The position numbers and the translations under genes are program-made. A model generated the notes under the pieces. It did no database searches. It was given only the letters and a program-made list of their open reading frames with translations, and was not told where the DNA came from. A stretch of 64,000 nucleotides of DNA from Dehalococcoidia bacterium. GTDB lineage: Bacteria > Chloroflexota > Dehalococcoidia > UBA6926. This document shows positions 1 through 37,529 of this stretch, piece after piece. The stretch spans positions 74,891 to 138,890 of the forward strand of contig DAOUJJ010000005.1 in assembly GCA_034422835.1 (NCBI GenBank). The letters run 5' to 3'. The stretch's first letter is position 1. Every line of letters starts with the position of its first letter.

Positions 1-210
1 GACGGATGCGGTGAGGATGGCGGGCTGGGTGTTGATGGTCTGCGTCAGGTCCTCCATGGGGCCCTCAAAGCAGAGCTGGGAGAGTGAGAACCCAAGGGCC
101 TCATCGGCCTCGTCAAAGATGGCCTTTGCGGCGGGAACGGCGTCATAGAGATCCTTGCCCATGCCGACTGCCTGCGCGCCCTGCCCGGGAAAGAGATATG
201 CGACTGTCAT
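1..210 (-). CDS. fabD: malonyl CoA-ACP transacylase, N-terminal fragment (gene runs off window start)
   Basis: Minus-strand translation from ATG (rc of cat 208-210) gives MTVAYLFPGQGAQAVGMGKDLYDAVPAAKAIFDEADEALGFSLSQLCFEGP..., carrying the FPGQG(A/S)Q acyltransferase motif. Not in the ORF track because it is truncated by the window edge. Confidence 0.6.
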   Translation of the reverse strand, partial: MTVAYLFPGQGAQAVGMGKDLYDAVPAAKAIFDEADEALGFSLSQLCFEGPMEDLTQTINTQPAILTASV

Positions 211-324
211 TTTCGGCTACTCCCTCTGTGTCCTTTGTCCTCGCGCTGTGCGCCCTGTGTGTTTCGCTTTCCGGCCTGCCGAGGGCGCTTTGGCAGGCTG
301 CCTCAAATAGTTGCAGACTTTCCG

Positions 325-516
325 CTATTCGGCGGCGCGGCGCGGCGTGGTGACCTGCCTGCCGTTATAGATGCCACAGGACGGGCAGACGCGGTGGGAA
401 ACTCTCCGGTTCCCGCAGTCGGGGCACAGTGACGTGAGGATTGTGGATTTGGCGGTGTGCGCCATGCGTTTGTTCTGGCGCGCCCGCGAGCGTCGCCTCT
501 TTGGAAGAGGTGGCAT
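325..516 (-). CDS. rpmF: 50S ribosomal protein L32
   Basis: 63 aa starting MPPLPKRRRSRARQNKRMAH with a CPDCGNRRVSHRVCPSCG zinc ribbon. It sits directly downstream of yceD, the classical yceD-rpmF pairing. Confidence 0.9.
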   Translation of the reverse strand: MPPLPKRRRSRARQNKRMAHTAKSTILTSLCPDCGNRRVSHRVCPSCGIYNGRQVTTPRRAAE

Positions 517-542
517 GCCGTGATGTTCCTTTCCTTTACGAG

Positions 543-1055
543 TTAATCATCGGATTTGGTCACCCATAGCTCTTGCAGCTTGGCCCACTCACTGCGAGCG
601 GGAACGGGCGGACATTTGCAGGATACCGTATTGCGGTCGACTCCGCACTGCGGACAGAGGCCGAGGCAATCGGTTTTGCAAACGGGGTTCTGCGGCTCAT
701 GGATGATCAGGTACTGGCGAACGGCATCAGCGACATCAAGATGATGCTGCTCGTTGATCTGCAGGTCCTCGAATGAATCACGCTCCGGCATCTTGCGGCC
801 GGTGGCGATATCAATGACGGGGAAGAACTCCTCATCAAAGGAGAATCGAAGTTTGTGAGGGTAGGGCTTGAGGCAGAGGGAGCAGGTCTGCTGGTTCTCC
901 GCGTCGCACGTGGCAGAGACAAGGACCCCGGCGTCCGTGCGCATAAGCTCGGCCTGGCAGTTGACGAGGGCAGTACCAACGTCTTCACCGATGAAGCCAT
1001 AGGATCGGCGCGCGCCGATCGGTTCCTGCATCAGCCCGCTGACGTTAATCAGCAT
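543..1055 (-). CDS. yceD: YceD/DUF177 family protein (large-subunit rRNA accumulation protein)
   Basis: 170 aa with C-terminal CxxC...CxxC (CLGLCPQCG...CKC). Immediately upstream of rpmF as in most bacteria. Confidence 0.8.
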   Translation of the reverse strand: MLINVSGLMQEPIGARRSYGFIGEDVGTALVNCQAELMRTDAGVLVSATCDAENQQTCSLCLKPYPHKLRFSFDEEFFPVIDIATGRKMPERDSFEDLQINEQHHLDVADAVRQYLIIHEPQNPVCKTDCLGLCPQCGVDRNTVSCKCPPVPARSEWAKLQELWVTKSDD

Positions 1056-1062
1056 GGCGAGG

Positions 1063-1479
1063 TTACTCTTCGGGGGCGGGGGTGCCCGTTACTTCGCGGG
1101 TGAAGTCGACGATTTCCTTGAGGCTGGTGCCGGGGCCGAAGATGCCCGCGATCCCCATCTGTGTGAGGGCGTCATAGTCCTCCTTGGGGATGATGCCGCC
1201 GGAGAACACAGGAATATCGAGGCCGTTTTCACGCAGGCCGTTGACGATTGCGGGCAGGAGATCAAGGTGCGCGCCGGAGAGGATGCTGAGGCCGATGGCA
1301 TCCACGTCCTCCTGCACCGCGGCCTGGACGATCATCTCAGGCGTCTGGCGGATGCCGGTGTAGATGACCTCAAAGCCGGCGTCGCGCAGCGCTCGCGCGA
1401 CAACCTTTGCGCCACGGTCGTGGCCGTCAAGGCCGGGCTTGGCGATAAGAACCCGCGCGGGGGCCGTTGCTGTTGTCAT
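1063..1479 (-). CDS. methylmalonyl-CoA mutase, B12-binding small subunit (stand-alone cobalamin-binding domain)
   Basis: 138 aa containing the [32 protein letters not shown] motif, the DxHxxG cobalamin-binding signature of MCM C-terminal domains. Confidence 0.85.
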
Positions 1480-1526
1480 CGTTACTGCTCCTCTCCCTTG
1501 GGCGGGCGCTGTCTGACGCGCCGCCC

Positions 1527-2414
1527 TTAGTGCGCTGCGCCGTCTGCGGGCTGCGTGCGGTTCATTCCCGCATGTGCCGCGTCGCGCTGCGCTATCAATA
1601 CTAGAGTACCGAGAAAATCAAGGGGGTGGACGGCGCGGAGCACGTTGGTGGGCTCGCCGTCATCGACGATCATACGGACGCCCGCCGCGCGCACGCGCTC
1701 TTCAACGGCCACCGGGTCGTCTGTCTCCAGCACGACGGCGTGCAGTCCCTCACCCATGAGCTTGAGGGCGCGGGCAACGGGGCCGTCTTCACGCAGGTCC
1801 TGAGCGAACTCGACCTCTGCATCTCCGGCGTCCAGCCACGCGGTGTCCATGCCGAACCCCTCGGAGACGGCGCGGCGCTTGAGCGGCATCCTGAACAGGT
1901 GCTGCCAGGTGGCCGACGCAGTGCCAACATCTGCCGTTCGGATGGTGACGTGGTGGAGGCCGATGTCCCGCGACGTGCCGGGCGTGAACAGGGTTGTTTC
2001 CTTGATCTCCACAGGAACGCCGCCGGTGCTGGCAGGGGAGATGATGGTGTTCTTGCCGGTGATGCCCTGTTGGGGAGTATGGACGATGAACTCACCGCCG
2101 CGTTCCTGGATCTCCGCCGTTGCCTGCTCAACGTCATCGACGTGGAAGCTGACGTGGTGCATACCCTCGCCGCGTTCCTCCAGTTGCTTGGCGAGCGGGG
2201 AGTCGTCGGTTGTGGGCTGGAGCAGCAAGAGACGGCCAAGCCGCAAAGGAATGATGGCGGCGCGATAACCCTCGTCATACGCATCCCGCTTGACGGTTGT
2301 GGTCAAGCCGAGAACGTCTTCGAATTTCTGTGCCGCCTCATCGATGTCTCGTACAAGGAGACCGACCTGGTCAAATCGCTGGAGGAGGAGGTCTTGCTGT
2401 TGGTCTGTCATCAT
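1527..2414 (-). CDS. two-domain VOC (glyoxalase/bleomycin-resistance/dioxygenase fold) protein, paralogue of the downstream gene
   Basis: 295 aa with two VOC modules. It shares the [14 protein letters not shown] motif with the adjacent 2433-3236 gene. Located between the two mutase subunits. Confidence 0.7.
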
Positions 2415-2432
2415 GGTTGCCTTTCCGAGCGT

Positions 2433-3236
2433 TTAGGCGCGCTGGTTGATCATGATGAGGGTGCCGAAGAAGTCCTGGGGGTGGACGACGCGGATGACGC
2501 TGTCGCCCTCAGGGTCTTCGATGACACGAAGTCCCTGCGATTTGATGTGCTCGGCCAGGCCGGCGGCGTCGTCTGACTCAAGGACGATGCCAAAGACACC
2601 AGGACCCCGTTCCTCGATGAACTTGGCCAACGGGCCCTCCTCCGAGGTCTGCTGGGCGAATTCGACCTCGGCGTCGCCCGCGTCCAGCCAGCCGGCGATG
2701 ATGCCGGCGTTCTCCCGCTCGGAGTTGCGATTTAGTTTGAGGTCAAAGCTCTTCGACCAGTTTGCGACCGCGGCGTCACGGTCAGGCGTTGCGATGGTGA
2801 TGTGGTGAAGCTTGAGGTCATGGTCGGTGGGGGTGCGGCGCGTGATCTGGGCAACCTCGACAAGGACGCCGTTGGCGGCGCGGGGGTGGATGAAGTCCAC
2901 CTCGCCGACAAAGCCGGTCTCAGGCTCGCCCTGGATGAGTTGGACCTCGCGTTCCTTTAGGGTGGCGATGGCAGCGTGAATGTCCTCCACCTCGAAACAG
3001 ACATGCTGTATGCCCTCGCCACGGCGTGCGATGAACCTGCCGACGGCGCTTTCCGGATCTATGGGCTGCATGACCTCAAAGCGGACGTTTGCGGTGGGGA
3101 GGAGGGCGGCAACGAGGCCGCGCTCTTCGATGACCTCCTGGGCGGCGATCTTCAGGCCGAAGAGATTTTCAAAGGCGTCCGTCGCCTCCTTGAGGTCACG
3201 GACGACGACGCCGATGTGGTCGATTGCTTTGAACAT
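2433..3236 (-). CDS. two-domain VOC protein, candidate methylmalonyl-CoA epimerase
   Basis: The ORF track extends it to 3746, but that extension is Arg/Ser-rich and overlaps the mutase gene in another frame. The true start is ATG at 3234-3236 (MFKAIDHIGVVVRDL...), preceded by an AAGGAGG Shine-Dalgarno (rc of 3251-3257). VOC fold (HIGVVV, HHITIA). Context between the MCM subunits supports an epimerase role. Confidence 0.7.
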   Translation of the reverse strand: MFKAIDHIGVVVRDLKEATDAFENLFGLKIAAQEVIEERGLVAALLPTANVRFEVMQPIDPESAVGRFIARRGEGIQHVCFEVEDIHAAIATLKEREVQLIQGEPETGFVGEVDFIHPRAANGVLVEVAQITRRTPTDHDLKLHHITIATPDRDAAVANWSKSFDLKLNRNSERENAGIIAGWLDAGDAEVEFAQQTSEEGPLAKFIEERGPGVFGIVLESDDAAGLAEHIKSQGLRVIEDPEGDSVIRVVHPQDFFGTLIMINQRA

Positions 3237-3292
3237 CTTTAAGTTTGGCCTCCTTGGTTTTACGGTTCGAGTTCGCGGTGTTTTGCTTCGTT

Positions 3293-3322
3293 CTGGATTC
3301 CCGCTTTCGCGGGAATGACGGG
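3293..3322. repeat. family-A palindromic element, copy 1 (TGGATTCCCGCTTTCGCGGGAATGACGGGTGG)
   Basis: Inverted repeat ATTCCCGC/GCGGGAAT around a TTTC loop, 27 nt 3' of the mutase large-subunit stop. Near-identical copies at 5143, 12321 and 37455. Confidence 0.8.
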
Positions 3323-3348
3323 TGGAAAGCAGGAATGGGCGATGGGTG

Positions 3349-5013
<1,665 letters not shown>

Positions 5014-5142
5014 GGGCTGATCCTCCCATCGGGCGCGTGCAGGTGTCGCGGCCTACGCGCGAATTTGCTCACAACAGGATACAGCGGCGATAGGCGTGTT
5101 GTCAGTTGGGGGCTGCCAAGGCAGCCCTGCGGGCGGCACTGG

Positions 5143-5175
5143 ATTCCCGTGTCAAGCACGGGAATGACGGGCGGG
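5143..5175. repeat. family-A palindromic element, copy 2 (GGATTCCCGTGTCAAGCACGGGAATGACGGGCGG)
   Basis: Stem ATTCCCGTG/CACGGGAAT with loop TCAAG, about 55 nt 3' of the ispG stop. Directly followed by the family-B motif. Confidence 0.75.
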
Positions 5176-5178
5176 GGG

Positions 5179-5203
5179 CCTTCGACAGGCTCAGGGCGAA
5201 CGG
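5179..5203. repeat. family-B motif, copy 1 (CCTTCGACAGGCTCAGGGCGAACGG)
   Basis: A 23-25-nt motif shared with 16244-16267 and 59726-59752 at 21-22 of 23 positions. GCTCAGGG(C/T)G is repeated again at 5211-5220. Confidence 0.65.
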
Positions 5204-5227
5204 GGGAGGCGCTCAGGGTGTGGGGGA

Positions 5228-6394
5228 TTAGGTGGTGGCGGCTTCGGGGTCGAGTTCAATCTGCTCAATCTCTTCCATGAGAGCGGAGACGAACTCGGAC
5301 TCGGGAACGACGCGAACCTTCTGGCCCTTGCGGAAGATGATGCCGCGGCCATTGCCTGCGGCGATCCCCACGTCGGCGTCCTTTGCCTCGCCGGGGCCGT
5401 TCACCTCACAGCCCATGACGGCCACGCGCACCGGCTTGTCCACCTGTTTGAGCGCCTCGTCCACCATCTCGGAGTACTTGATGATGTCAACGTCGGCGCG
5501 CCCGCAGGACGGGCAGGCGATGAGAGTGACGCCCTTGTTGCGCATGTTGAGCGACTTGAGAATCTCCCAACCGGCTTCGACTTCTTTGACAGGGTCTCCG
5601 GCGAGAGAGACGCGGATAGTATCGCCGATGCCCTCATAGAGAAGGTGTCCGAGACCGACGGCGCTGCGGATCGAGCCGCCAAACGGCGTGCCCGCCTCCG
5701 TGATCCCCAGGTGCAGGGGATAGTCAACCTGCTCAGCAACGCGGCGGTAGGCCTCAACGGTCATGGGGACATCGAATCCCTTGACGGAGATCTTGATTTG
5801 GTCGAAGTCCATCTCCTCGAGGATTCCGACCTCCCAAAGCGCAGTCGCCACCATGTGGTCAACGACGGTGTAGTCGCCCTCGCCCTCCTGGCTGGCCTTG
5901 GCGAGCTTGTTGACGCCGTCGGCGAGTCGATGGAAATCACCGGTCTTACCGATGCCGCCGATGGGGGGCAGGGAACCGAAGTTGACACCGATGCGGATGG
6001 GAATCTCGTATTCCTTGGCAAGCGTGACGACTTCCCGCACCTTGTCTGCGTCGCGGATGTTGCCGGGGTTCAGTCGGATGCCGCTGACGCCGCTCTTGAT
6101 CGCCTCAAGCGCGAGCAGGTGGTGGAAGTGGATGTCCGCGATAACGGGGATGGGGGCGCGGCTGCAGATCCATTTGAGGGCTTGTGCGGCGTCCATATTC
6201 GGGACGGCGCAGCGGATGATGTCACATCCGGCGGCGGCAACCTCATAGATCTGGGAGACCGTTGCTTCCACATCACGGGTATCAGTCTTGGTCATCGACT
6301 GCACGGCGACAGGCGCATCGCCGCCCACGGGGACCTTTCCAACATGGATTTGCCGAGAAACACGTCGCTCCGGCATGGTCTTTCTCCTATCCAT
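5228..6394 (-). CDS. ispG: 4-hydroxy-3-methylbut-2-enyl diphosphate synthase (flavodoxin)
   Basis: 388 aa showing [28 protein letters not shown], the hallmark IspG/GcpE N-terminus, and C-terminal CPSCGR cluster cysteines. The true start is possibly the internal MPERR. Confidence 0.9.
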   Translation of the reverse strand: [388 protein letters not shown]

Positions 6395-6470
6395 AAGGCG
6401 ACTCCAAACCTACCTACACGATACCACAGAGAGCCTAAGCGACAGGCTAGTTGAGACGGGTTATCAGAGG

Positions 6471-6890
6471 TTATGAGGTTTCCCAGGGATTGATGACATC
6501 GACACCTAGGCCGGTGAAGTCTCGTACATTGCGTGTGACTATAACCATGTCATTGACGCTTGCCGTTCCTGCGATCAAGGCATCGCCGAGTTCCAGTTCA
6601 CCGCCGCTCCGACGCACTTGCGCCTGGAACACTGCGGCACGTTCTGCTTCCCGTCTCCCAATAGGTGAGATACGCCCCTCATAGTCCTCGAGGAGCAGGT
6701 TTAACCACTCTCTCAACCTTTCGCGCCGGCGGCCTTGCGGCAAGATTTGTACTCCTAATTCCAACTCTTCAACAACGATGGCTGATAGCCACAGATCATC
6801 ATGGTTGCTCAGAAAGTCCAGCACAGTCGGGGCAGGGTCTTCCTTAGTGCGCTCCGAAACGACGTTTGTGTCTAGGAGAAAGCCGGTCAT
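6471..6890 (-). CDS. vapC: type II toxin VapC (PIN-domain ribonuclease)
   Basis: 139 aa carrying the PIN acidic residues (LLDTNVV..., ...GDALIAGTA..., ...IVTRNVRDF). It overlaps the upstream antitoxin by 4 nt. Confidence 0.8.
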   Translation of the reverse strand: MTGFLLDTNVVSERTKEDPAPTVLDFLSNHDDLWLSAIVVEELELGVQILPQGRRRERLREWLNLLLEDYEGRISPIGRREAERAAVFQAQVRRSGGELELGDALIAGTASVNDMVIVTRNVRDFTGLGVDVINPWETS

Positions 6891-7189
6891 TGGGCACTAT
6901 CTTCATCCTCTTCCAAGTCCTGGAAGGGAATCTCTCGATGGGACTCTCGACTGCGGGGCGGGATTTCAAGATTGGTTCCCCTGGGCGTGTTCTCGACCAG
7001 CCACTTTCCCAAGGGCATCCGGGGCTTCGCCTTTTCATCCCACACCGCTGCGGGCACGACAACGAAGGGTTTGCGAGCGCCGATGCGCTGCGGTCCTTCT
7101 TCCTCTGCCAGTCGTAGAATCTCAGATAGCCGCGCTTTCGCCTCAGTAACAGTCCAGATACGCTCAGAACCGGAGTGTTGAATGGCCAT
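6887..7189 (-). CDS. vapB: type II antitoxin, Phd/YefM-like
   Basis: 100 aa with the WTVTEAKARLSEILRLAEEEGPQRIGARKPFVVVP motif, typical of the Phd/YefM antitoxin N-domain. Its stop overlaps the vapC start (ATGA-type coupling). Acidic disordered C-terminus. Confidence 0.65.
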   Translation of the reverse strand: MAIQHSGSERIWTVTEAKARLSEILRLAEEEGPQRIGARKPFVVVPAAVWDEKAKPRMPLGKWLVENTPRGTNLEIPPRSRESHREIPFQDLEEDEDSAQ

Positions 7190-7204
7190 GACGCCTCCTC
7201 GATC

Positions 7205-7245
7205 AGAATACTAGTCTAATATAGACCAGATTATTGAAACTGTGT
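7205..7245 (-). promoter_or_regulatory. AT-rich promoter/operator region upstream of vapB with near-palindrome TAGTCTAATATAGACCA
   Basis: Only strongly AT-rich stretch in the neighbourhood. It lies immediately 5' of the antitoxin start and contains an imperfect dyad, as expected for TA autoregulation. Confidence 0.35.
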
Positions 7246-7302
7246 TGGTTGTAGCAAGGACATCATTGATTTCAGGTCGACGGAGGCTGGCCCACCTCTG
7301 TA

Positions 7303-8370
7303 TTACGGCAGGACGGAGTCTCCTTGCAGGAGGCGGGGAAGGTCTATGCCGACGGTGACGAAGAAGACCAGTGAGAGCAGGAAGACAAAGCCGATGAGGT
7401 GGACGAGGTTCTCACGCTGAGGAGAGAGGCGTCGTCCGCGACGGACCACCTCCAGGATGAGGAATGGGATGCGGCCGCCGTCCAGGGCAGGGATGGGCAG
7501 CAGGTTCAGGATGCCCAGGTTGAGGCTCAGCAGGGCGACGATAATCAGCAGGGAAATCGGCCCCTGCTGCGCCGCCTCCCCCGTCGCCTGCGCGATGCCC
7601 ACCGGCCCCGCAATGCCGGGGTTGCTTGAGGAACCGACGGCGCGTTGAATCTCCGTCGCAGTGCTTGTAACCACGTTGCCCATGAGCACGATGCCGTTCC
7701 ACGGCGCCTGCCAAACGGGGGCGGCACGGCGTTCAAAGACGGGATTGAGAAGGTGAATCGACACGCCCATCGGCCCCTCGCCGGGCAGAGGATTCGCACG
7801 GGGAGCGAGGTAGACGGCAAGCGGGACGCTCCCGCGCTGAACCCGCAACTCCACCTCATCGCCGTCGGCGCGGTTGATGCGGTCGGAGAGCTGCCCCAAT
7901 GTCAGCACGTCCTGGCCATCCACGGCTCGGATCACATCGCCCACTCGCAGGTCGGCCTCGTCCGCCGGGGACCCGGCGACAACTTCTTCAATCACGATTT
8001 CACTGTCAACGAGCCGGTCCACGGGCAGGGAGGCGAGGGCGCTGAAGATGAACCACGCGAGCAGGATGTTCATGGCGGAGCCGGCCACCAACACGATGAA
8101 GCGCGCCCAGACGGGCTTGCCCGCGTAGCCATCGGGCACGGTTGGATCGCTCTCGCCCTCCAGCCGCACAAACCCGCCGACGGGTATCCAGTTCAGGGAA
8201 TAGACGATGCCGTTGCGCCAGATGCCCTTGAGACGGGGCGGAAAGCCGATGCCGAGCTCCCGCACGCGAATGCCGAGCAGGCGCGCCGCCCAGAAATGGC
8301 CGAGTTCATGGATGAGCACGAGGAAGCTCAGGACAACGGCAAAGGCCGCGATGGTAACGAGGATCGACAT
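7303..8370 (-). CDS. rseP: RIP metalloprotease RseP (site-2 protease, M50 family, with PDZ domain)
   Basis: HELGH zinc motif in the first TM, a PDZ-like segment (GSPADEADLRVGDVIRAVDG) and C-terminal TMs. The start was moved to the MSILVT ATG at 8368-8370. The ORF track begins 15 codons upstream at 8415. Confidence 0.85.
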   Translation of the reverse strand: MSILVTIAAFAVVLSFLVLIHELGHFWAARLLGIRVRELGIGFPPRLKGIWRNGIVYSLNWIPVGGFVRLEGESDPTVPDGYAGKPVWARFIVLVAGSAMNILLAWFIFSALASLPVDRLVDSEIVIEEVVAGSPADEADLRVGDVIRAVDGQDVLTLGQLSDRINRADGDEVELRVQRGSVPLAVYLAPRANPLPGEGPMGVSIHLLNPVFERRAAPVWQAPWNGIVLMGNVVTSTATEIQRAVGSSSNPGIAGPVGIAQATGEAAQQGPISLLIIVALLSLNLGILNLLPIPALDGGRIPFLILEVVRRGRRLSPQRENLVHLIGFVFLLSLVFFVTVGIDLPRLLQGDSVLP

Positions 8371-8372
8371 TG

Positions 8373-9485
8373 TCAGCGCGCCTTTGCCGAGTTCCTGACG
8401 TGGTCGCGCGCCCACGCATCGACCGCAAGCAAGTCGTCAAGGGTCGGCTGATTTACAGGAGTGTGGGCGTCAAGCGCGTCGGCAATCAAAGACGGTATGG
8501 AGTTGAAGGGGATGGCGCCTGAGAGGAAGAATTCGACGGCGATCTCGTCGGCGGCGTTGAGAACGGCCGGGTACGTCTTGCCGCTTCGAGCAGCATCGAC
8601 GGCGAGCCAGAAACACGGGAATCGGCCACGATCCAGCGCCTCGAATGTCTGCTCAACCGAGTAGTCCATCTCGCGCCAATCAGCGGGGCGCTCGATGCGT
8701 TCTGGCCAGGCAAGCGCGTATTGGATGGGGAGGCGCATGTCCGGCATGGATAGCTGCGCCTTGAGCGTGCCGTTGGTGAACTCGACCATCGAGTGGACGA
8801 TGCTCTGGCGATGCACCATGACATCGATGCGGTCGTAATCGATGTCGTAGAGCCAGCGCGCCTCTATGACCTCCAGCGCCTTGTTCATCAGGGTGGCGGA
8901 GTCGATGGTGACTTTAGGCCCCATGCGCCACGTTGGATGTGCCAAAGCCTCGTCCGGCGTGACGGATTCAAGTTCCTCTTGGCTGCGGGCAAAGAACGGT
9001 CCCCCGGAGGCGGTCAGGATGAGGCGGCTGACAGAATCCGTCGGCTCTCCGGCCAGGCATTGCCAAAGCGCGTTGTGCTCACTGTCAACGGGGAGGAGCG
9101 CCGCGCCGGTTCTGGCCACCTCGCTCATCACAAGTTCACCGGCCACGACGAGGATTTCCTTGCTCGCAAAGGCAACGGTCTTGCCCGCCTCGATGGCGGC
9201 AAGGGCAGGGACGAGGGCGGCGAGGCCGGGGATGGCGAGGACGACGGCGTCCACATCGGGACTGCGGGCGATATCCGCGAGCTTCTCAGGCGTAGACGCC
9301 TCTCCTGAGGCGGAGAGAGCGGGGGTAAATTCCGCCACCTGCGCGTGAAAGGCGTCGCTGTCATGTCCGGCGGCAAGGCCAACCACGCGGAATCGGTCGG
9401 CATTTCGTCGGACAACATCCAGCGTTTGGGTGCCGATGGAGCCCGTTGATCCAAGGACGGCGATGCGTTTCTGTGCGTCACTCAT
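8373..9485 (-). CDS. dxr: 1-deoxy-D-xylulose 5-phosphate reductoisomerase
   Basis: 370 aa with the KRIAVLGSTGSIGTQTLDVV NADPH-binding N-terminus and conserved dxr-rseP synteny. Confidence 0.9.
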   Translation of the reverse strand: MSDAQKRIAVLGSTGSIGTQTLDVVRRNADRFRVVGLAAGHDSDAFHAQVAEFTPALSASGEASTPEKLADIARSPDVDAVVLAIPGLAALVPALAAIEAGKTVAFASKEILVVAGELVMSEVARTGAALLPVDSEHNALWQCLAGEPTDSVSRLILTASGGPFFARSQEELESVTPDEALAHPTWRMGPKVTIDSATLMNKALEVIEARWLYDIDYDRIDVMVHRQSIVHSMVEFTNGTLKAQLSMPDMRLPIQYALAWPERIERPADWREMDYSVEQTFEALDRGRFPCFWLAVDAARSGKTYPAVLNAADEIAVEFFLSGAIPFNSIPSLIADALDAHTPVNQPTLDDLLAVDAWARDHVRNSAKAR

Positions 9486-9486
9486 G

Positions 9487-10161
9487 TCATTCCATAGTAG
9501 TGACGATGGTCACATAGACAAGGACGGCGGGAAGAATCGGCAGCAGCGAATCAAGCCGGTCAAGGACGCCGCCGTGGCCGGGGAGCAGGTTGCCGGAATC
9601 CTTGACGCCTGCCTTTCGCTTGAGCCGGGACTCGGCCAGGTCCCCCAGCTGACCAAGCGCGGAGAGTACCGCGCCCAGTGGGATAGCCGCGACAAGCGGG
9701 AGAGTTTCCAAATCGATGAACAGAGCAAACCCGGCGCTCACCGCCGCCGCGCCGATGACTCCGCCCACCGCGCCCTCCCACGTCTTGCTCGGGCTGATCG
9801 ACGGGGCGAGTTGGTGGCGGCCAATGAGGCTGCCGACCGCGTAGGCGGCCGTATCGGAGGCGAACGTAATGAGGATGGCGTAGAAGAGCCACGCAAGGCC
9901 GTCGTTCGATTCCCGGAGCACCAAGCCGGACGCGAGGGCAGCGGCCACAATGAGGGATGCCAAGAGCCAGAGGATAAGGCTGAATCGCCGGAGCATGGCG
10001 CGCAGTTCCCAGATCGCGACCAGCGCCGCCGCCCCCGTTACAAGCAGTAGCGGGATGCCGCCCAGCCAGACAGCGGCGGCCAACAGCGGAATACCGACAA
10101 CTGCCGTGGCCAGCCGGAGCGGTAGAGAATCCCTGTTTCCCGCAGCGTCCTCCTGGTTCAT
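9487..10161 (-). CDS. cdsA: phosphatidate cytidylyltransferase
   Basis: Multi-TM protein carrying the SPSKTWEGAVGGVIG CdsA signature. The ORF track extends to 10245, which overlaps uppS. An internal MGMNQ start avoids that overlap. Confidence 0.8.
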   Translation of the reverse strand: MNQEDAAGNRDSLPLRLATAVVGIPLLAAAVWLGGIPLLLVTGAAALVAIWELRAMLRRFSLILWLLASLIVAAALASGLVLRESNDGLAWLFYAILITFASDTAAYAVGSLIGRHQLAPSISPSKTWEGAVGGVIGAAAVSAGFALFIDLETLPLVAAIPLGAVLSALGQLGDLAESRLKRKAGVKDSGNLLPGHGGVLDRLDSLLPILPAVLVYVTIVTTME

Positions 10162-10201
10162 ACCCATAGAGAGATTATGGGGGAGAGGGACGTAGCGCGG
10201 C

Positions 10202-10927
10202 TTATTCTCCCTCCACGCCTCCGAAACGCCGTTTGCGGGCGGCATATGAGTCTAGGGCTTTGGTGACTTCTTCGGGGCCGAAGTCGGGCCAGAGCGTCGA
10301 CGTGAAATAGAGTTCCGCGTAGGCGGCCTGCCACAGCAGGAAATTGCTGATGCGCAGTTCGCCGCCGGTGCGGATAATCAGGTCCGGGTCCGGCAGGCCG
10401 TTGGTGAACAGGCGGCTCGCGAATGCGGATTCGTCCAGGTCTTCGGGAGCAACATCATCTCGCAGCAGTGTTCTGGCCGCCTCAAGAATCTCCTCGCGGC
10501 CTCCGTAATCGAACGCGACACTGAGTGTGATGCCGGTATTGCCCTTCGTCATGTCAACAACGCGGTTGATGGCGGCGGCGATGTCCGGGCTGATGCGGTC
10601 GTTGCGTCCAAGATGGACCAGCCGCGCTCCCTCCTCGTGCAGACGGGGGGCGTCCTGCTTGATAGCCTCGGCGGCAAGCGTCATCAAACCCTGGACTTCT
10701 TCGGACGGACGCCGCCAATTCTCCGTGGAAAAGGCATAGAGCGTCAGATAGCGGACGCCTCGCTCAGAGAACGCGCGGACAACATCATGCAGCTTGATGC
10801 GGCCATGCTGATGCCCCTGCTCACGTGGGAGTTCCCGTTCCCGCGCCCATCGCCCATTGCCATCCATGACGATGGCGACGTGCTGCGGGGTGGCAGTGGG
10901 GAGGCGAGATTCGTCCGATGGTGTCAT
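10202..10927 (-). CDS. uppS: isoprenyl transferase (undecaprenyl-diphosphate synthase family)
   Basis: Shows HVAIVMDGNGRWA and YLTLYAFSTENWRRP, the canonical cis-prenyltransferase motifs. Confidence 0.9.
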   Translation of the reverse strand: MTPSDESRLPTATPQHVAIVMDGNGRWARERELPREQGHQHGRIKLHDVVRAFSERGVRYLTLYAFSTENWRRPSEEVQGLMTLAAEAIKQDAPRLHEEGARLVHLGRNDRISPDIAAAINRVVDMTKGNTGITLSVAFDYGGREEILEAARTLLRDDVAPEDLDESAFASRLFTNGLPDPDLIIRTGGELRISNFLLWQAAYAELYFTSTLWPDFGPEEVTKALDSYAARKRRFGGVEGE

Positions 10928-10945
10928 GCGCGGGCGGATACGACG

Positions 10946-11503
10946 CTAGACTTCCATGACCGCGGCTTCCTTGGCCGCACCCATCTCATCGACCTGCCCC
11001 GTGTAGCGGTCGGTGATCTTCTGGAGTTGGTCCGCCGCGCGGCGTTCCTCGTCTTCTGAGATTTCCTTGTCGCGCTGCAGTCGGCGCAGGTGGTCCATGG
11101 CGTCACGGCGGACGTTGCGTATGGCCACACGCTCATCCTCGGCCTTGGAGCGAACCAGCCGGCTCATCTCCTTGCGACGTTCCTCCGTCATCTGCGGAAT
11201 CGGGATGCGGAGCAATTGTCCGTCTGCAGCGGGGGATAGTCCCAGGTCTGTCTGAAGGATGGCGCGCTCGATGGCCGTCATGGCGGAGTGGTCATAGGGC
11301 TGAACGACGAGGAGGCGCGGTTCCGGGGCGGTGATGGTCGCCAGCTGTTTGAGCGGAGTGGGCGTCCCGTAGTAATCGACCCGGAGTTCCTCGATCAGGG
11401 TAGGGGAGGCGCGGCCGGTGCGGATGCCTGCCAACTCGCGGTCAAGAACCTCGCACGTGACCTGCATTCGGTGTTCTGCACCGTCGAGAATCTCTTGCGT
11501 CAT
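10946..11503 (-). CDS. frr: ribosome recycling factor
   Basis: 185 aa with typical RRF sequence (…ELRVDYYGTPTPLKQLATITAPEPRLLVVQPYD…). Confidence 0.9.
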   Translation of the reverse strand: MTQEILDGAEHRMQVTCEVLDRELAGIRTGRASPTLIEELRVDYYGTPTPLKQLATITAPEPRLLVVQPYDHSAMTAIERAILQTDLGLSPAADGQLLRIPIPQMTEERRKEMSRLVRSKAEDERVAIRNVRRDAMDHLRRLQRDKEISEDEERRAADQLQKITDRYTGQVDEMGAAKEAAVMEV

Positions 11504-11527
11504 GGCTTGTCCTCCCTCCGGGCGCGC

Positions 11528-12259
11528 CTAGCGTGTTCCGCTTGAGTTGACGAGCGTGCCGACCGTTTCACCCCTCAGTATTCTGCCAACGCTTCCCGCG
11601 TCAAAGATGTCAAAGACGACGATGGGCAGGCTGTTGTCCATGCAGAGGGTCAGCGCCGTGCTGTCCATGACGCCAAGCCGCAGATTGAGGGCCTCCATGT
11701 AGCTGATGGCGGAATACCGCTTCGCGTCAGGTTTCTCATTGGGGTCGGCGTCGTAGATGCCGTCCACCTTGTTCTTGGACATGAGGAGGACGTTCGCGCC
11801 CACTTCCACGGCGCGCAGGGAGGCCGCCGTGTCCGTCGTCATGTACGGGTTGCCGGTTCCGGCGGCGAAGATGACCACGCGGCCTTTCTCCATGTGGCGA
11901 ATGGCGCGGCGGCGGATGTACGGCTCCGCGACGGCCTGGATGGCGATGGCGGAGAGAGTGCGGACATCCGCGCCGAGGCTTTCAAGCGTCGTCTGGAGCG
12001 CGAGGGCGTTGATGACGGTGGCCAACATGCCGGAATAATCGGCGGTGGCGCGATCCATGCCGGACTCCTGGGCGATTCTGCCGCGCCAGATATTGCCGCC
12101 GCCCACGACGATGCCCATCTGCGCGCCGGTCTGCAGAACGTCATAGATCTCGGATGCGACGACACGGACGGTATCAACGTCAATGCCGGACGCACGAGGG
12201 CCCATCAGCGCCTCGCCACTGAGCTTGAGGAGGACTCGCCGCGGTTTGTCGCCGTCCAG
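11528..12259 (-). CDS. pyrH: UMP kinase
   Basis: Shows GGGNIWRG and [17 protein letters not shown]. The first ATG (12203-12205) would remove the conserved [15 protein letters not shown]-terminus, which is encoded in-frame upstream. No ATG, GTG or TTG lies between the upstream stop (12290-12292) and that ATG. The 5' end is therefore placed at a CTG (12257-12259) preceded by GAAAGG; see findings. Confidence 0.75.
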
Positions 12260-12320
12260 CGCCCCGTTCCTTTCTCTTTCGCCCTCATCCTAAACCCTCT
12301 CCAAGCGGGAGAGGAGATTC

Positions 12321-12350
12321 TGGATTCCCGCTTTCGCGGGAATGACGGGT
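12321..12350. repeat. family-A palindromic element, copy 3 (TGGATTCCCGCTTTCGCGGGAATGACGGGTAG)
   Basis: Identical to copy 1 over 29 nt, about 20 nt 3' of the tsf stop. Preceded by a second hairpin, CCCTCTCC-AAGC-GGGAGAGG (12295-12314). Confidence 0.8.
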
Positions 12351-12370
12351 AGTAGAGGAGATGTACCTGG

Positions 12371-12880
12371 CTACTCCTCGCCGATGCCGTAGCGGGCAAA
12401 TCGCCTGATGACGATATTTTCACCCACCTTGGCGACGGTGTCGGTGAGAAGGTTGCCGATTGTGAGGCTTGCGTCCTTGACGAATGGTTGGTGGAGAAGA
12501 CGTGGCTCGCCGGAGGACGTATCGAGATCATCGAGAGGGATTTCATCATCAATGGCCTGCGGATTCATCGCAGCGACCTGTAGGGCGATGTTGTGGGCGA
12601 GCTCCCTGAAATCCTCGGTGCGCGCAACGAAATCCGTCTCGCAGTTGAGCTCAACGATCACGCCGATGCGCCCGCCTGCGTGAACGTAGGTCTCGATGAG
12701 TCCCTCGTTTGCCGCGCGTGAGGCCTTCTTGGCAACGGTGGCGATGCCGCGCTCCTTGAGCAAGTCGCTTGCCTTGTCCATGTCGCCCTGCGCATCCTCA
12801 AGTGCACGTTTGCAGTCCATGATGCCCGCGCCGGTGCGCTCCCGCAGTTCCTTGATGGCATCAGCTGAGATTGTCGTCAC
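12371..12880 (-). CDS. tsf: elongation factor Ts (short form)
   Basis: 169 aa with the ISADAIKELRERTGAGIMDCKRAL UBA-like N-terminus and ELNCETDFVAR motif. Confidence 0.85.
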   Translation of the reverse strand: MTTISADAIKELRERTGAGIMDCKRALEDAQGDMDKASDLLKERGIATVAKKASRAANEGLIETYVHAGGRIGVIVELNCETDFVARTEDFRELAHNIALQVAAMNPQAIDDEIPLDDLDTSSGEPRLLHQPFVKDASLTIGNLLTDTVAKVGENIVIRRFARYGIGEE

Positions 12881-13008
12881 TTCATACTCCTGCCGTTATT
12901 TTCTGCGCGCCGCCGTTGCGAGCAGCGCGGTCAGCGCCTGTTTCTCATCGAAGCCCGCGCGATTGCAAGCTTGCGTCTTACGTGGTTGAGTTGGATCAGG
13001 GTAGGGGG

Positions 13009-13830
13009 TCAGGCAGTCGCTGCGGCGGCCTCGCCCTCCTGCCTCATGTTCTGTCCCTCGGTGGCGCCCTCGATGACGGCATCGGCGATGCGGCCGGTCA
13101 TCAGGCGAAGGGCGCGGATGGCGTCATCGTTGCCGGGAATCGGGTAATCAATGAGGTCAACGTTGCAGTCCGTATCGGCGATGGCGACGATTGGGATCCC
13201 CATCTTGCGCCCCTCGGCAATGGCGATCTTCTCGCGGGCCGCATCGATGACGTAGATCGCGCCCGGCATCTCCGTCATCTCCTTGATTCCGCCGAGATAA
13301 CGGTTGAGCTTGGCGATACGATCTTCAAGCCGTCCCGCCTCTTTCTTGGGCAGGAATGCGAACTCTCCTTTGGCGCGGCGATCCTCCTGCCGCACGAGGT
13401 AGTCGATGCGCGACTGAATGGTGCGGAAATTGGTGAGAGTACCGCCCAGCCAACGCTGGTTGACCCATGGCTGTTCGGCGCGTGTAGCCTCCGATGAAAT
13501 CGCGTCTTGCGCCTGCTTCTTGGTGCCGACGAAGAGCACCTTCTTGCCGGACATAGCGACTTCACGGACGAACTCAGCGGCCGCCTCAAGGCGATTGAGG
13601 GTCTTCTGGAGATCGATGATGTGGATGCCGTTGCGCTGCGTGAACACGAACGGCTTCATCTTGGGGTGCCAGCGGCGTGTGGGGTGTCCGAAATGGACTC
13701 CGGCCTCCAACAGGGTCTTCATCGTGATTTCAGGCTTATCCCCGTCTTCCGGAGTCGGCGGCGTCTCCGCCGCAGCCTGAATCGTCGTCGTTTCCTCGCC
13801 GGACGTTGTTGTCTCACCGTCAGTCGTCAA
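13009..13830 (-). CDS. rpsB: 30S ribosomal protein S2
   Basis: Shows [22 protein letters not shown] and the rest of the S2 core. The ORF as tracked starts at TTG 13828-13830 with an AAAGGGGTG Shine-Dalgarno, giving a 36-aa acidic Thr-rich extension. An alternative ATG at 13720-13722 gives the canonical N-terminus. The start is ambiguous. Confidence 0.85.
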
Positions 13831-14034
13831 GAGCCACCCCTTTGAATCCGCAATGCATATCTGGCTCAGTATAGCATGCGAGCCATGAGATGCTTAGGTT
13901 GACCGCAGATACAACCACACATACAATCTTATGTGCCGCCAAATACGAATTGGAATCGGAAATATGCCCGTATGGCCGGTGGCGGTTGACACGAAACCGG
14001 GTCAGTCCGGCCACGAGGGAACGGGGAAATAATC

Positions 14035-14298
14035 GTGCCACGATACGACTACGATTGCCCAGAATGCGACCTGCGCTTTGAGCTTCGGCAGAGTTTCGAT
14101 GCGGAACCCGTCGCGCCGTGTCCAACCTGCCAGGCGGAGAGCAAGCGCGTACTGCACGTTCCGCAGGTTGTCTATAACGCGGACGGATTCTATACGAGTG
14201 AGCAGAAGAAGACCGGCTTTGGCAGCTATTGGAATCGCAAGGCGGAGGCCGAGGACCAGGGCAAGATGGACCCTGACACGGGAGTCGGCGCTTACTAG
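14035..14298 (+). CDS. FmdB-family zinc-ribbon protein
   Basis: 87 aa from a GTG start, MPRYDYDCPECDLRFE...CPTC, with the FmdB-type CxxC-x(n)-CxxC arrangement and a GFY motif. Confidence 0.8.
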   Translation: MPRYDYDCPECDLRFELRQSFDAEPVAPCPTCQAESKRVLHVPQVVYNADGFYTSEQKKTGFGSYWNRKAEAEDQGKMDPDTGVGAY

Positions 14299-14360
14299 AT
14301 TGTAGGGCCGTCTCTGTCAGGCCTTTTCGATTCAATTACCAATCAACGGGAATAACAGTC

Positions 14361-14681
14361 ATGCCGATGTACGACTATGAGTGCCCATCATGCCCGCATC
14401 GCTTTACCGTGCGGCAGGGGTATCACGATGCTCGGAAGGCGACGTGCCCGGAGTGCGGCGACGAGGCAAAGCAGCGTATCTCCATGCCCGCCGTCGTGTT
14501 CAAGGGGAGCGGCTTCTATGTGAACGATTACGGCGGCAGGAAGACCGGGCAGCCGCCTGCAAGAGAGTCCGACGACGGCGGTGATTCCGGCGGAGACGCC
14601 TCAAGCGGCGATGATCACGACCATGCCTCCGCCGGCGCATCGGACCATTCCCACCCCCACCCCCATCCCCATCCTCACTAA
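14361..14681 (+). CDS. FmdB-family zinc-ribbon protein with acidic and His-rich (HPHPHPHPH) tail
   Basis: 106 aa, MPMYDYECPSCPHRF...CPECG, paralogous to the upstream gene. The C-terminus reads DDGGDSGGDASSGDDHDHASAGASDHSHPHPHPHPH. Confidence 0.8.
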   Translation: MPMYDYECPSCPHRFTVRQGYHDARKATCPECGDEAKQRISMPAVVFKGSGFYVNDYGGRKTGQPPARESDDGGDSGGDASSGDDHDHASAGASDHSHPHPHPHPH

Positions 14682-14687
14682 ACATCC

Positions 14688-15152
14688 GTGCGGGTCGTCA
14701 TTCAGCGAGTCTCACAGGCGAGCGTGCGCGTTGACGGCGAGATTATTGGTCAGACAGGGCACGGGGCGCTCATCCTGGCAGGTGTTAGGGACGGCGACAC
14801 CGAGGAGGACGTCCGCTACCTCGCGGGGAAGATACCCGGGCTCCGCATCTTTGCCGACGGCGAAAGCCATTTCCAAAACTCCGTGGCCGAGACGGGCGGC
14901 TCAGTGCTTGTCGTCAGCCAGTTCACCCTGTACGCGGATACGCGCAAGGGACGCAGGCCGAGTTTCGTGGAGGCGGCGCAGCCCGCAGAGGCTGAGCGGC
15001 TCTATGAACTGCTGGTCAGCGAGCTGCGCGAGCACGGGCTGACAGTCGAGACGGGACGTTTCGGGGCGATGATGGACGTGGAACTGGTCAACGACGGGCC
15101 AGTGACGATCATCATCGACAGCGAGGACAGGCAGCGGGCCAGACGCGGTTAA
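14688..15152 (+). CDS. dtd: D-aminoacyl-tRNA deacylase
   Basis: 154 aa with MRVVIQRVSQASV... and the SQFTL motif. GTG start. Confidence 0.9.
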   Translation: MRVVIQRVSQASVRVDGEIIGQTGHGALILAGVRDGDTEEDVRYLAGKIPGLRIFADGESHFQNSVAETGGSVLVVSQFTLYADTRKGRRPSFVEAAQPAEAERLYELLVSELREHGLTVETGRFGAMMDVELVNDGPVTIIIDSEDRQRARRG

Positions 15153-15661: not shown

Positions 15662-15674
15662 GGCCCGCGGATAA

Positions 15675-16049: not shown

Positions 16050-16228
16050 GTTGGATTATCGTGGGGTCAGGGGTTAGGGGATGTCAACGGCGAGAATCAC
16101 GGATCCCTTTCGGTTCACGTTTGCCCACCCTTATTTGAAAACAACATAATATCTATTGTGCGAAGTTGGGTACGGCATCAAGAAAACAGGCCGTGAGTCC
16201 CTGCCCGACAGTTTTGAGGCCAAGCTGG

Positions 16229-16272: not shown

Positions 16273-16307
16273 TGTCATTCTGAATGGAGCGCAGCGGAGT
16301 GAAGAAT

Positions 16308-19072: not shown

Positions 19073-19078
19073 GCGCGA

Positions 19079-37322: not shown

Positions 37323-37454
37323 AGTTGCTTACCTCCGATAGGTTCTGTGTCCGGGCCTCAGGCCGCAATGGCGCTGTTGCCGTCACTTGTTAGGAAATCA
37401 TAGCGCATAGGCGCGGACTTGCGTTATTGAACGTAGCTGACCAAACGTGATTCA

Positions 37455-37490
37455 GATTCCCGCCTTCGCGGGAATGACGAGTGGCGGAGC
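37455..37490. repeat. family-A palindromic element, copy 4 (AGATTCCCGCCTTCGCGGGAATGACGAGTGG plus a partial second unit)
   Basis: About 40 nt 3' of the nuoN stop. A second half-unit, GCGGGAATTACGGG, follows at 37478-37494. Confidence 0.75.
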
Positions 37491-37529
37491 GGGAATTACG
37501 GGTCCTGAAACACCAAGAGCAAATGAGAT

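What the first reader, a model, noticed from the sequence alone, without database searches (positions are those of the whole stretch)
3293..3322. Family-A 30-bp GC-rich palindromic element: four copies, each immediately 3' of a minus-strand gene
Near-identical units occur at four sites:
- 3293-3322, about 27 nt after the mutase large-subunit stop;
- 5143-5175, after ispG;
- 12321-12350, after tsf, identical to copy 1 over 29 nt;
- 37455-37490, after nuoN, with an extra half-unit.
The consensus is GGATTCCCG-N4-7-CGGGAATGACGRGTRG. In the mRNA sense it folds as CAUUCCCGC-GAAA/GAAG-GCGGGAAUC, an 8-9 bp stem with a GNRA-like tetraloop. The flank CCCGUCAUUCCCG is conserved. No U-tract follows, so these are not canonical intrinsic terminators. 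They look like a REP/BIME-type family that may stabilise 3' ends or punctuate operons. Four copies in 64 kb implies hundreds genome-wide.
Basis: seen in the sequence. Interest (0 to 1): 0.5.

Follow-up and report, generated by a model that had tools for sequence, protein, structure and literature searches.

The report
Known NTS/dRS3 hairpin repeats, Chloroflexota
The four GC-rich palindromes are real, but they are copies of an already described repeat (Neisseria dRS3/NTS, a "CGTC-tagged REP") whose published partner is a small single-strand DNA nuclease called Ssn, so the finding is ordinary apart from its host, an uncultured Chloroflexota bacterium.

Summary
Four same-strand copies of a tagged hairpin lie in intergenic DNA downstream of the mutase, ispG, tsf and nuoN genes, where chance predicts none.

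On the minus strand they read CGTC-ATTCCCGC-GAAA/GAAG-GCGGGAAT-CCAG. Two copies match the published 28-nt Neisseria Transformation Sequence (NTS) with 0 mismatches, and one with 1 mismatch. The fourth fits the published degenerate Ssn-related motif (SRM).

The same element is the CGTC-1 REP of Di Nocera 2013, which is dRS3 in Neisseria. Chenal et al. 2025 showed that it is the single-stranded-DNA target of Ssn, a single-domain GIY-YIG nuclease.

I re-found that link independently. In loci fetched by the repeat alone, 10 of 11 small GIY-YIG genes are flanked on both sides by the repeat, against 8 of 1228 control genes.

The exact 24-mer occurs in at least ten phyla, including 13 Dehalococcoidia loci.

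No Ssn gene, RAYT or other transposase is seen in about 79 kb of this scaffold. Copies 1-3 are absent from the same intergenic sites in relatives whose mutase is 89-96% identical. Orientation relative to transcription is random across taxa, so a dedicated RNA 3'-end role is not supported.

Verdict: a real feature that is already known, of low to moderate interest.

The parts
3293..3320 (-). NTS copy 1: CGTCATTCCCGCGAAAGCGGGAATCCAG (hairpin core 3297-3316), between the methylmalonyl-CoA mutase gene and a glyoxalase-family gene
   Evidence: 0 mismatches to the published NTS consensus. Folds as ssDNA into an 8-bp stem with a 4-nt loop, -9.0 kcal/mol, z = -4.3. Sequence read.
5139..5169 (-). Variant copy 2: CGTCATTCCCGTGCTTGACACGGGAATCCAG (9-bp stem, 5-nt loop), between ispG and the mutase gene
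   Evidence: Matches the published degenerate SRM pattern but not the strict NTS. Stem position 8 changes C-G to T-A, a compensatory change. ssDNA fold -9.6 kcal/mol, z = -3.7.
12320..12347 (-). NTS copy 3: CGTCATTCCCGCGAAAGCGGGAATCCAG, between tsf and pyrH
   Evidence: 0 mismatches to NTS. Identical to copy 1 over 33 nt. ssDNA fold -9.0 kcal/mol, z = -4.3.
37452..37479 (-). NTS copy 4: CGTCATTCCCGCGAAGGCGGGAATCTGA, downstream of nuoN
   Evidence: 1 mismatch to NTS. ssDNA fold -8.9 kcal/mol, z = -3.7. The same sequence is present in the independent assembly locus L001.
37489..37500 (-). Truncated NTS: tag plus 5' arm only (CGTAATTCCCGC). It lies 9 nt upstream (minus sense) of copy 4, in direct orientation
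   Evidence: Read. No complementary 3' arm follows. The same CGTA tag variant occurs in the full copy of relative L125.

Best explanation
The four elements are copies of the NTS / Ssn-related motif. This is the same element as the CGTC-1 class of tagged REPs and includes the Neisseria dRS3 palindrome.

Mechanism, taken from the published system: when the minus strand is single-stranded, the element folds into an 8-9 bp hairpin. A single-domain GIY-YIG nuclease of the Ssn family (cd10448) binds the hairpin together with the C that follows it. It reads the GTC just 5' of the stem and nicks the single strand a few nucleotides upstream of the CGTC tag. It does not act on dsDNA, RNA or the complementary strand.

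The repeats are thought to spread from IS-like NTS-ssn-NTS units, and in Neisseria they restrict the integration of transforming ssDNA.

Shown here:
- sequence identity to the NTS;
- the ssDNA hairpin;
- retention in all four copies of the bases that are critical for Neisseria SsnA;
- intergenic placement;
- the repeat-nuclease association in other genomes;
- gain and loss of copies between close relatives.

Inferred, not shown:
- that this Chloroflexota genome encodes a cognate Ssn somewhere outside the about 79 kb examined;
- that these four copies are cleaved;
- that they arrived by Ssn-dependent mobilisation rather than by recombination.
For: - **Match to the NTS.** Copies 1 and 3 match CGTCATTCCCGCGMAVGCGGGAATCYRG at 28 of 28 positions and copy 4 at 27 of 28. 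Copy 2 matches the SRM pattern (consensus from PMC11893778).
- **Fit to CGTC-1.** The architecture is a CGTC tag, an 8-bp stem starting AT, a 4-nt loop and a CCA tail. This fits the CGTC-1 description, which that paper equates with dRS3 (PMC3733652).
- **Critical bases kept.** All four copies keep GTC before the palindrome and C after it. These are the positions reported as critical for cleavage and binding. Among 387 one-sided-tagged copies from other genomes, 384 have C after the palindrome, although that base was not in the search pattern.
- **Structure.** Stable ssDNA hairpins, z between -3.7 and -4.3. In 590 copies there are 147 compensatory Watson-Crick changes against 101 non-Watson-Crick pairs.
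- **Nuclease association, found independently.** Of 11 GIY-YIG (PF01541) genes in 2.08 Mb of repeat-selected loci, 10 are flanked on both sides by the repeat, against 8 of 1228 control genes; Fisher p = 2e-19. One of the 11 is in an Anaerolineales (Chloroflexota) MAG, L227.
- **Breadth.** These include 13 Dehalococcoidia loci.
- **Turnover.** Copies 1-3 are absent at orthologous sites in L123, L124 and L125, while L125 has a copy at a site that is empty in the window.
Against: - No Ssn-like ORF is found in the window, in the about 15 kb of extra scaffold fetched (L246, L247) or in the three syntenic relatives. The profile search gives E > 0.8.
- None of the 13 Dehalococcoidia loci carries an Ssn gene.
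- The published family is mainly in Pseudomonadati.
- All window copies are singletons, whereas CGTC-1 elements are described as mostly head-to-head dimers.
- No clean empty-site versus filled-site junction could be recovered. The intergenic DNA of the closest relative is unalignable, so mobilisation as such is not demonstrated.
- Ssn activity has been tested only for three Neisseria and one Wolbachia enzyme.
Confidence: 0.8

Rival explanations
1. RNA-level element. Transcribed as the 3' end of the upstream gene, the hairpin blocks 3' exonucleases or pauses/terminates transcription, and so punctuates operons.
For: - All four copies lie 23-58 nt after a stop codon, in mRNA sense.
- Canonical hairpin-plus-T-tract terminators are rarer than chance in window 1-20000: 7 found against 14.3 expected. 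Other 3' structures could therefore matter here.
- Across taxa the repeat favours convergent (59) over divergent (30) intergenic regions.
- Di Nocera 2013 considers many REPs plausibly transcribed.
- REP stabilisation of upstream mRNA in E. coli is established knowledge.
Against: - The orientation of the strongly conserved asymmetric tag and tail relative to transcription is random: 65 sense and 55 antisense overall, and 3 and 7 in other Chloroflexota.
- The copies are absent from the same operon junctions in relatives with 89-96% identical mutase.
- SsnA does not bind the RNA form.
- The bias toward 3' regions is equally explained by purifying selection against insertions into promoters.
Confidence: 0.12
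2. Orphan relics. The copies were brought in by past mobilisation or horizontal transfer, the genome no longer has an Ssn partner, and the copies are decaying with no present role.
For: - No Ssn gene in about 79 kb of the scaffold.
- Low density: 4 copies in about 79 kb.
- One truncated half-copy and one tail-variant copy.
- Relatives have 0-2 copies per 21.7 kb.
- In the published survey 19% of genomes with more than 200 SRMs had no SsnA homologue.
Against: - Copies 1 and 3 are identical over 33 nt and perfect matches to the consensus. This suggests recent origin or maintenance rather than long decay.
- Only a small fraction of the genome could be inspected.
Confidence: 0.2
3. Classical GTAG REP/BIME family mobilised by a RAYT (IS200/IS605-like Y1 transposase).
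For: - Short extragenic palindrome with an unpaired conserved tag.
- Copy 3 happens to be followed by GTAG on the plus strand.
Against: - The conserved tag is CGTC 5' of the stem. The plus-strand tetramers after the copies are GTGG, GCGG, GTAG and GTGG, so GTAG is not conserved.
- No Y1_Tnp domain appears among the window's genes.
- CGTC repeats are reported never to flank RAYT genes.
- There is no BIME-like alternation of inverted units.
Confidence: 0.02
4. Attachment or target sites for a site-specific recombinase, as dRS3 serves for Neisseria filamentous prophages.
For: [quoted passage not shown] The motif is common in IMG/VR contigs.
Against: - No prophage, integrase or IS110-type gene lies next to any of the four copies (Pfam lists).
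- Target use would be secondary and would not explain the origin of the repeat.
Confidence: 0.05

Closest known systems
NTS (Neisseria Transformation Sequence) / SRM, the target of Ssn GIY-YIG ssDNA endonucleases (Chenal et al., Nat Commun 2025, PMC11893778)
   Same: - The 28-nt sequence is identical or nearly so: 0, 0 and 1 mismatches, plus one SRM-type variant.
- Directional tag, hairpin, and the conserved C after the stem.
- Intergenic location.
- In other genomes sampled here, NTS-ssn-NTS units occur.
   Different: - The host is an uncultured Chloroflexota bacterium, not Pseudomonadati.
- Density is low.
- Copies are singletons rather than clusters.
- No ssn gene was seen in the DNA available.
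- No link to natural transformation is known for this lineage.
CGTC-1 family of tagged REPs (Di Nocera, De Gregorio & Rocco, BMC Genomics 2013, PMC3733652)
   Same: - CGTC tag, 8-bp stem beginning AT, 4-nt loop and CCA tail.
- Extragenic, and mostly between unidirectional or convergent genes.
- No adjacent transposase.
   Different: - That paper found CGTC repeats in five phyla, not including Chloroflexi, and mostly as head-to-head dimers.
- Here they are singletons.
- Copy 2 has the 9-bp stem and 5-nt loop geometry described for families CGTC-3 and CGTC-4.
Neisseria dRS3 (ATTCCC-N8-GGGAAT) and NIME mosaics
   Same: - Copies 1, 3 and 4 fit ATTCCC-N8-GGGAAT exactly.
- Copies 2 and 3 sit next to other short repeats, so the intergenic DNA is a small mosaic.
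   Different: - No large clusters.
- No association with surface-protein genes or prophages.
- Copy 2 has N11.
E. coli/Pseudomonas REP-BIME/REPIN elements with RAYT
   Same: Short tagged extragenic hairpins, probably recognised as ssDNA by a small dedicated nuclease whose gene is flanked by the repeats.
   Different: - Different tag (GTAG).
- Different enzyme fold (HUH Y1 transposase rather than GIY-YIG).
- Inverted doublets are the rule.

Membership tests
NTS / SRM (Ssn target) | Sequence fits CGTCATTCCCGCGMAVGCGGGAATCYRG with at most 1 mismatch (the published search criterion), or the degenerate SRM pattern | tested here: met
   Copies at 3293, 12320 and 37452 have 0, 0 and 1 mismatches. The copy at 5139 fits the SRM pattern.
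NTS / SRM (Ssn target) | Directional: conserved GTC immediately 5' of the palindrome and C immediately 3' of it | tested here: met
   All four copies. 384 of 387 copies elsewhere have the 3' C.
NTS / SRM (Ssn target) | Forms a hairpin as single-stranded DNA | tested here: met
   -8.9 to -9.6 kcal/mol, z from -3.7 to -4.3.
NTS / SRM (Ssn target) | The genome encodes a cd10448-type single-domain GIY-YIG (Ssn), typically flanked by the repeats | tested here: inconclusive
   None in the window, L246 or L247 (about 79 kb) or in three relatives. The rest of the genome is not available. The association is confirmed in other genomes.
NTS / SRM (Ssn target) | Cleaved by the cognate Ssn only as ssDNA and only on the tagged strand | not testable with these tools
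   Biochemical assay needed. Published for Neisseria and Wolbachia enzymes only.
NTS / SRM (Ssn target) | Rarely inside genes | tested here: met
   4 of 4 intergenic in a window about 90% coding.
CGTC-1 tagged REP | CGTC tag, 8-bp stem with A-T in the first two positions, 4-nt loop, 3-nt tail close to CCA | tested here: met
   Copies 1 and 3 fit exactly. Copy 4 has tail CTG. Copy 2 has a 9-bp stem and 5-nt loop.
CGTC-1 tagged REP | Units predominantly in head-to-head dimers | tested here: not met
   The window has four singletons plus one truncated direct half. Dimers are common in other taxa: 173 inverted pairs within 200 nt.
CGTC-1 tagged REP | Tens to thousands of copies per genome | not testable with these tools
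   Only about 79 kb of the genome was seen. 4 copies there extrapolate to roughly 50 per Mb.
GTAG REP / BIME with RAYT | Conserved GTAG tetranucleotide at one end of the hairpin | tested here: not met
   The tag is CGTC. GTAG is present after copy 3 only.
GTAG REP / BIME with RAYT | Associated IS200/IS605-like Y1 transposase gene | tested here: not met
   No Y1_Tnp among the Pfam annotations that cover the window's genes. Genome-wide presence is unknown.
Intrinsic (Rho-independent) terminator | GC-rich hairpin immediately followed by a T/U tract | tested here: not met
   No T tract after any copy. None of the copies is listed by the terminator scan of window 1-20000.
Rfam RNA families | Match to a curated covariance model at gathering score | tested here: not met
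   No match anywhere in the window.

The most novel reading that the evidence does not exclude
NTS elements may be actively gained and lost in this Dehalococcoidia-like Chloroflexota lineage. Copies differ between genomes whose flanking proteins are 88-96% identical, and two copies are identical over 33 nt. If a Chloroflexota Ssn is encoded elsewhere in the genome, this lineage would be a natural system outside Pseudomonadati for catching NTS-ssn-NTS units behaving as a true mobile element. The 2025 paper raises that idea only as a hypothesis.
Probability: 0.3. Interest if true: 0.5.

Novelty: already known. Interest (0 to 1): 0.22.

Why it matters
For annotation, these four sites should be labelled as NTS/SRM (CGTC-1 REP) repeats. 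They should not be labelled as terminators or as a new family.

The modest added value is threefold:
- The exact NTS consensus is common in Dehalococcoidia-class Chloroflexota MAGs: 13 of the first 120 loci returned by the genome scan.
- It shows presence/absence differences between close relatives.
- The Ssn-repeat association can be recovered blind from repeat-selected loci, which supports the 2025 report.

Whether Ssn mobilises the repeats, and what they do outside Neisseria, remains open.

Tried and rejected
- **Rfam scan of the whole window:** nothing at gathering score.
- **Orientation relative to transcription**, using a crude GC3-based gene caller on 198 GC-rich loci: no bias, so no support for a directional RNA role. 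The 41 'intragenic' calls are probably mostly gene-caller artefacts. Window copy 1 was miscalled this way.
- **G-T versus A-C asymmetry** in 590 copies, to find the functional strand: 22 against 44 (p = 0.009). The signal comes mainly from the tag-distal arm carrying about twice as many one-sided transitions (43 against 23). I read it as stronger sequence constraint on the tag-proximal arm, not as evidence for a strand, and I treat it as suggestive only.
- **GC skew** to infer replication direction and a lagging-strand bias: too weak to use.
- **Search for near-identical strains** to obtain clean empty or filled sites: the exact EF-Ts protein occurs only on this scaffold. One look-up failed because of a wrong start codon.
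- **Alignment of intergenic regions with the closest relative (96%):** flanks align, but intergenic DNA is unrelated, so no insertion junction or target duplication could be defined.
- **Homologue search with a Chloroflexota-MAG Ssn** to find named Dehalococcoidia homologues: thousands of hits, but the named ones were all proteobacterial.
- **Supplementary tables of the 2025 paper** are not held, so I could not check whether Chloroflexota genomes were already listed.
- **The SRM pattern also hits 27900-27930**, inside the CCA-adding/polyA-polymerase gene. I judged this a chance match of a very degenerate pattern.

Full report
**1. Observation**

The four sites exist as described.
- The pattern ATTCCCG-N(3-12)-CGGGAAT gives exactly four matches, all in one orientation: 3297-3316, 5143-5165, 12324-12343 and 37456-37475. 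None occurred in 100 dinucleotide-preserving shuffles.
- Copies 1 and 3 are identical over 33 nt.
- Pfam confirms the neighbours: methylmalonyl-CoA mutase, GcpE/IspG, EF-Ts and a NuoN-type antiporter subunit.
- Each copy lies 23-58 nt after the stop codon of a minus-strand gene.
- The window is about 90% coding, so four of four copies being intergenic has a chance of about 9e-5.
- 50 of 61 genes are on the minus strand, so the shared orientation relative to genes is less striking than it looks.

Minor corrections:
- Copy 2 has a longer spacer, giving a 9-bp stem and a 5-nt loop.
- The stem is 8 bp in the other copies.
- The 'half-unit' after copy 4 is a tag plus 5' arm only (37489-37500).

**2. 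Anatomy**

Read on the minus strand, the unit is CGTC-ATTCCCGC-GAAA/GAAG-GCGGGAAT-CCAG (CTGA in copy 4). As single-stranded DNA each copy folds into the expected hairpin at -8.9 to -9.6 kcal/mol, with z from -3.7 to -4.3. No T tract follows any copy. Terminator-like sites are in any case fewer than chance in the first 20 kb, 7 against 14.3 expected. Rfam has no matching family.

**3. What it is**

The architecture is a CGTC tag, an 8-bp stem beginning AT, a 4-nt loop and a CCA tail. This is how Di Nocera et al. 2013 describe family CGTC-1 of tagged REPs, which they equate with Neisseria dRS3 and Rickettsia RPE-6. They state that CGTC repeats have no dedicated transposase (PMC3733652).

Chenal et al. 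2025 defined the 28-nt Neisseria Transformation Sequence (NTS), CGTCATTCCCGCGMAVGCGGGAATCYRG, and a degenerate Ssn-related motif (SRM) (PMC11893778). Copies 1 and 3 match the NTS with 0 mismatches and copy 4 with 1. Copy 2 matches the SRM pattern.

**4. The partner**

I found the partner before I found the 2025 paper. Among loci fetched only by the repeat pattern, eight had two inverted copies 330-356 nt apart enclosing a conserved small ORF. That ORF is a GIY-YIG domain protein (PF01541).
- In 2.08 Mb of such loci there are 11 of these genes.
- 10 are flanked on both sides within 150 nt by the repeat, and 1 on one side.
- Among control genes of the same loci, 8 of 1228 are flanked on both sides (Fisher p = 2e-19).

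A literature search then showed this is the published Ssn family, cd10448. According to that paper:
- SsnA binds the NTS only as ssDNA, and not dsDNA, RNA or the reverse strand.
- It depends most on the C just after the palindrome for binding, and on the three bases before it for cleavage.
- It cuts a few nucleotides upstream.
- In N. meningitidis it lowers integration of NTS-containing transforming DNA.
- NTS-ssnA-NTS is noted to look like an insertion sequence.

All four window copies keep GTC before the stem and C after it. In 387 tagged copies from other genomes, 384 have that C, although it was not part of my search pattern. 78% have the CCA tail.

**5. Breadth and host**

The mutase is 70-78% identical to proteins named Chloroflexi, SAR202 and Dehalococcoidia. 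The window comes from a 164-kb metagenomic scaffold.

Record titles include:
- Alpha-, Beta-, Gamma- and Deltaproteobacteria, and Campylobacterota;
- Bacteroidota, Planctomycetota (including Brocadiia) and Verrucomicrobiota;
- Acidobacteriota, Gemmatimonadota and Nitrospirota;
- Cryosericota and a Peribacteria MAG;
- 13 Dehalococcoidia loci (12 MAGs), plus one Thermoflexales and one Anaerolineales MAG.

Some MAG assignments may reflect mis-binning. However, cultured isolates and closed long-read chromosomes are among the hits.

**6. This genome**

A profile of the 11 Ssn proteins finds nothing in the window, in about 15 kb of additional scaffold, or in three syntenic relatives (E > 0.8). Pfam annotation of the window's genes shows housekeeping functions only, with no Y1, IS110 or other transposase. 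No further NTS copies occur in the extra scaffold DNA, so the count is 4 in about 79 kb. Whether a partner gene exists elsewhere in the genome cannot be decided here.

**7. Turnover**

Three syntenic loci from relatives were compared, with mutase identity of 96%, 89% and 88%.
- They lack copies 1, 2 and 3 at the orthologous intergenic sites.
- The 88% relative has an NTS (2 mismatches) between the two glyoxalase-family genes, a site that is only 18 nt long and empty in the window. It has another copy at the locus edge.
- Where the window has copy 1, the 96% relative has a different palindrome.

The intergenic DNA is otherwise unalignable, so exact insertion junctions cannot be defined. This shows gain and loss on a short evolutionary scale. 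It does not show how that happens.

**8. Testing the RNA idea**

In 590 copies (at most 4 substitutions) there are 147 compensatory Watson-Crick changes against 101 non-Watson-Crick pairs, so the stem is maintained.

The tagged strand is not oriented relative to transcription. In unidirectional contexts it is sense in 65 and antisense in 55. In other Chloroflexota it is 3 and 7.

Convergent intergenic regions are favoured over divergent ones, 59 against 30. This fits either a 3' function or selection against promoter disruption.

Together with the published lack of RNA binding by SsnA, the conserved asymmetry is better explained at the ssDNA level. An incidental effect of the hairpin on mRNA remains possible.

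**9. Mechanism**

Best supported: these are NTS-type Ssn target hairpins that act when the minus strand is single-stranded. They arrived by the still-uncharacterised process that spreads NTS copies from NTS-ssn-NTS units.
- Shown: identity, structure, retention of critical bases, placement, association in other genomes, and turnover.
- Inferred: presence of a cognate Ssn in this genome, cleavage of these copies, and the mode of spread.

**10. Verdict**

This is a real feature that was observed correctly. It belongs to an element family described in 2000 (dRS3), 2013 (CGTC-1 REP) and 2025 (NTS/SRM with Ssn). The occurrence in Chloroflexota and the presence/absence differences between relatives are small extensions. 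Novelty: already known. Interest: low to moderate.

Noticed in passing
window 5179-5203, 16243-16267, 59727-59751 (minus sense CCGTTCGCCCTGAGCCTGTCGAAGG); also once in L123: A second short intergenic repeat family. The copy at 5179 abuts NTS copy 2. The copy at 16243 sits inside a 12-bp perfect inverted repeat (AGCTCCGTTCAC...GTGAACGGAGCT). It is rare in the other fetched loci: 6 matches in 3 loci.
   Followed up: partly
window 12295-12315 (CCCTCTCCAAGCGGGAGAGGA, then GGTTTAGGATGAGGG in minus sense); L123 about 11690-11725: A third palindromic motif lies directly beside NTS copy 3. A relative of it (CCCTCTGCCTAAAGGAGAGGGTTGGGTGAGGG) occupies the mutase-glyoxalase intergenic site in L123, where the window has NTS copy 1. 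A loose pattern for it hits 33 times in 25 of the loci from diverse phyla, so it may be another widespread repeat family.
   Followed up: partly
L245 7719-7952 (Dehalococcoidia MAG CBDESW010000012.1): Three NTS copies in direct orientation with an exact 107-nt period. This is a tandem repeat whose unit contains the NTS. L157 (119 nt) and L227 (93 nt) also have direct pairs. Direct arrays are described as negligible for CGTC repeats in the 2013 survey.
   Followed up: no
window 6471-7189 (minus strand): A PIN-domain (VapC-like) ORF preceded by an overlapping 100-aa ORF with no Pfam hit. This is probably a toxin-antitoxin pair. It lies between ispG and the M50 peptidase gene. The 96% relative L123 has an unrelated 305-aa ORF at this spot and L124 has nothing, so it is a variable spot.
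   Followed up: partly
window 35339-36248 vs 36433-37327, and 1527-3238: Tandem paralogous two-domain glyoxalase/VOC-family genes (71-77% nucleotide identity) lie directly downstream of nuoN. A similar pair lies downstream of the mutase gene. NTS copies 1 and 4 each sit just upstream of such a pair.
   Followed up: no
window about 39048-47850 (L001 1192-11512): The nuo operon has 11 subunits (A, B, C, D, H, I, J, K, L, M, N) with no nuoE/F/G genes, plus a 64-aa ORF without a Pfam hit between nuoK and nuoL.
   Followed up: no
window 1-20000: Canonical hairpin-plus-T-tract terminator-like sites are about half as frequent as in shuffled sequence (7 against 14.3 +/- 4.1). This suggests the organism makes little use of classical intrinsic terminators.
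   Followed up: no
590 NTS copies in loci L003-L245: One-sided transitions are about twice as frequent in the tag-distal arm (43) as in the tag-proximal arm (23). C-to-T changes in the proximal arm are depleted: 7 against 23 for the mirror change. This is consistent with sequence-specific reading of the tag-proximal arm, but the sample is small.
   Followed up: partly
one search hit table (Ssn homologues): Most Ssn-family proteins in the metagenome protein collection sit on very short contigs (about 0.5-3 kb). This is what would be expected if their flanking repeats break short-read assemblies, so Ssn genes may be systematically missing from MAGs.
   Followed up: no
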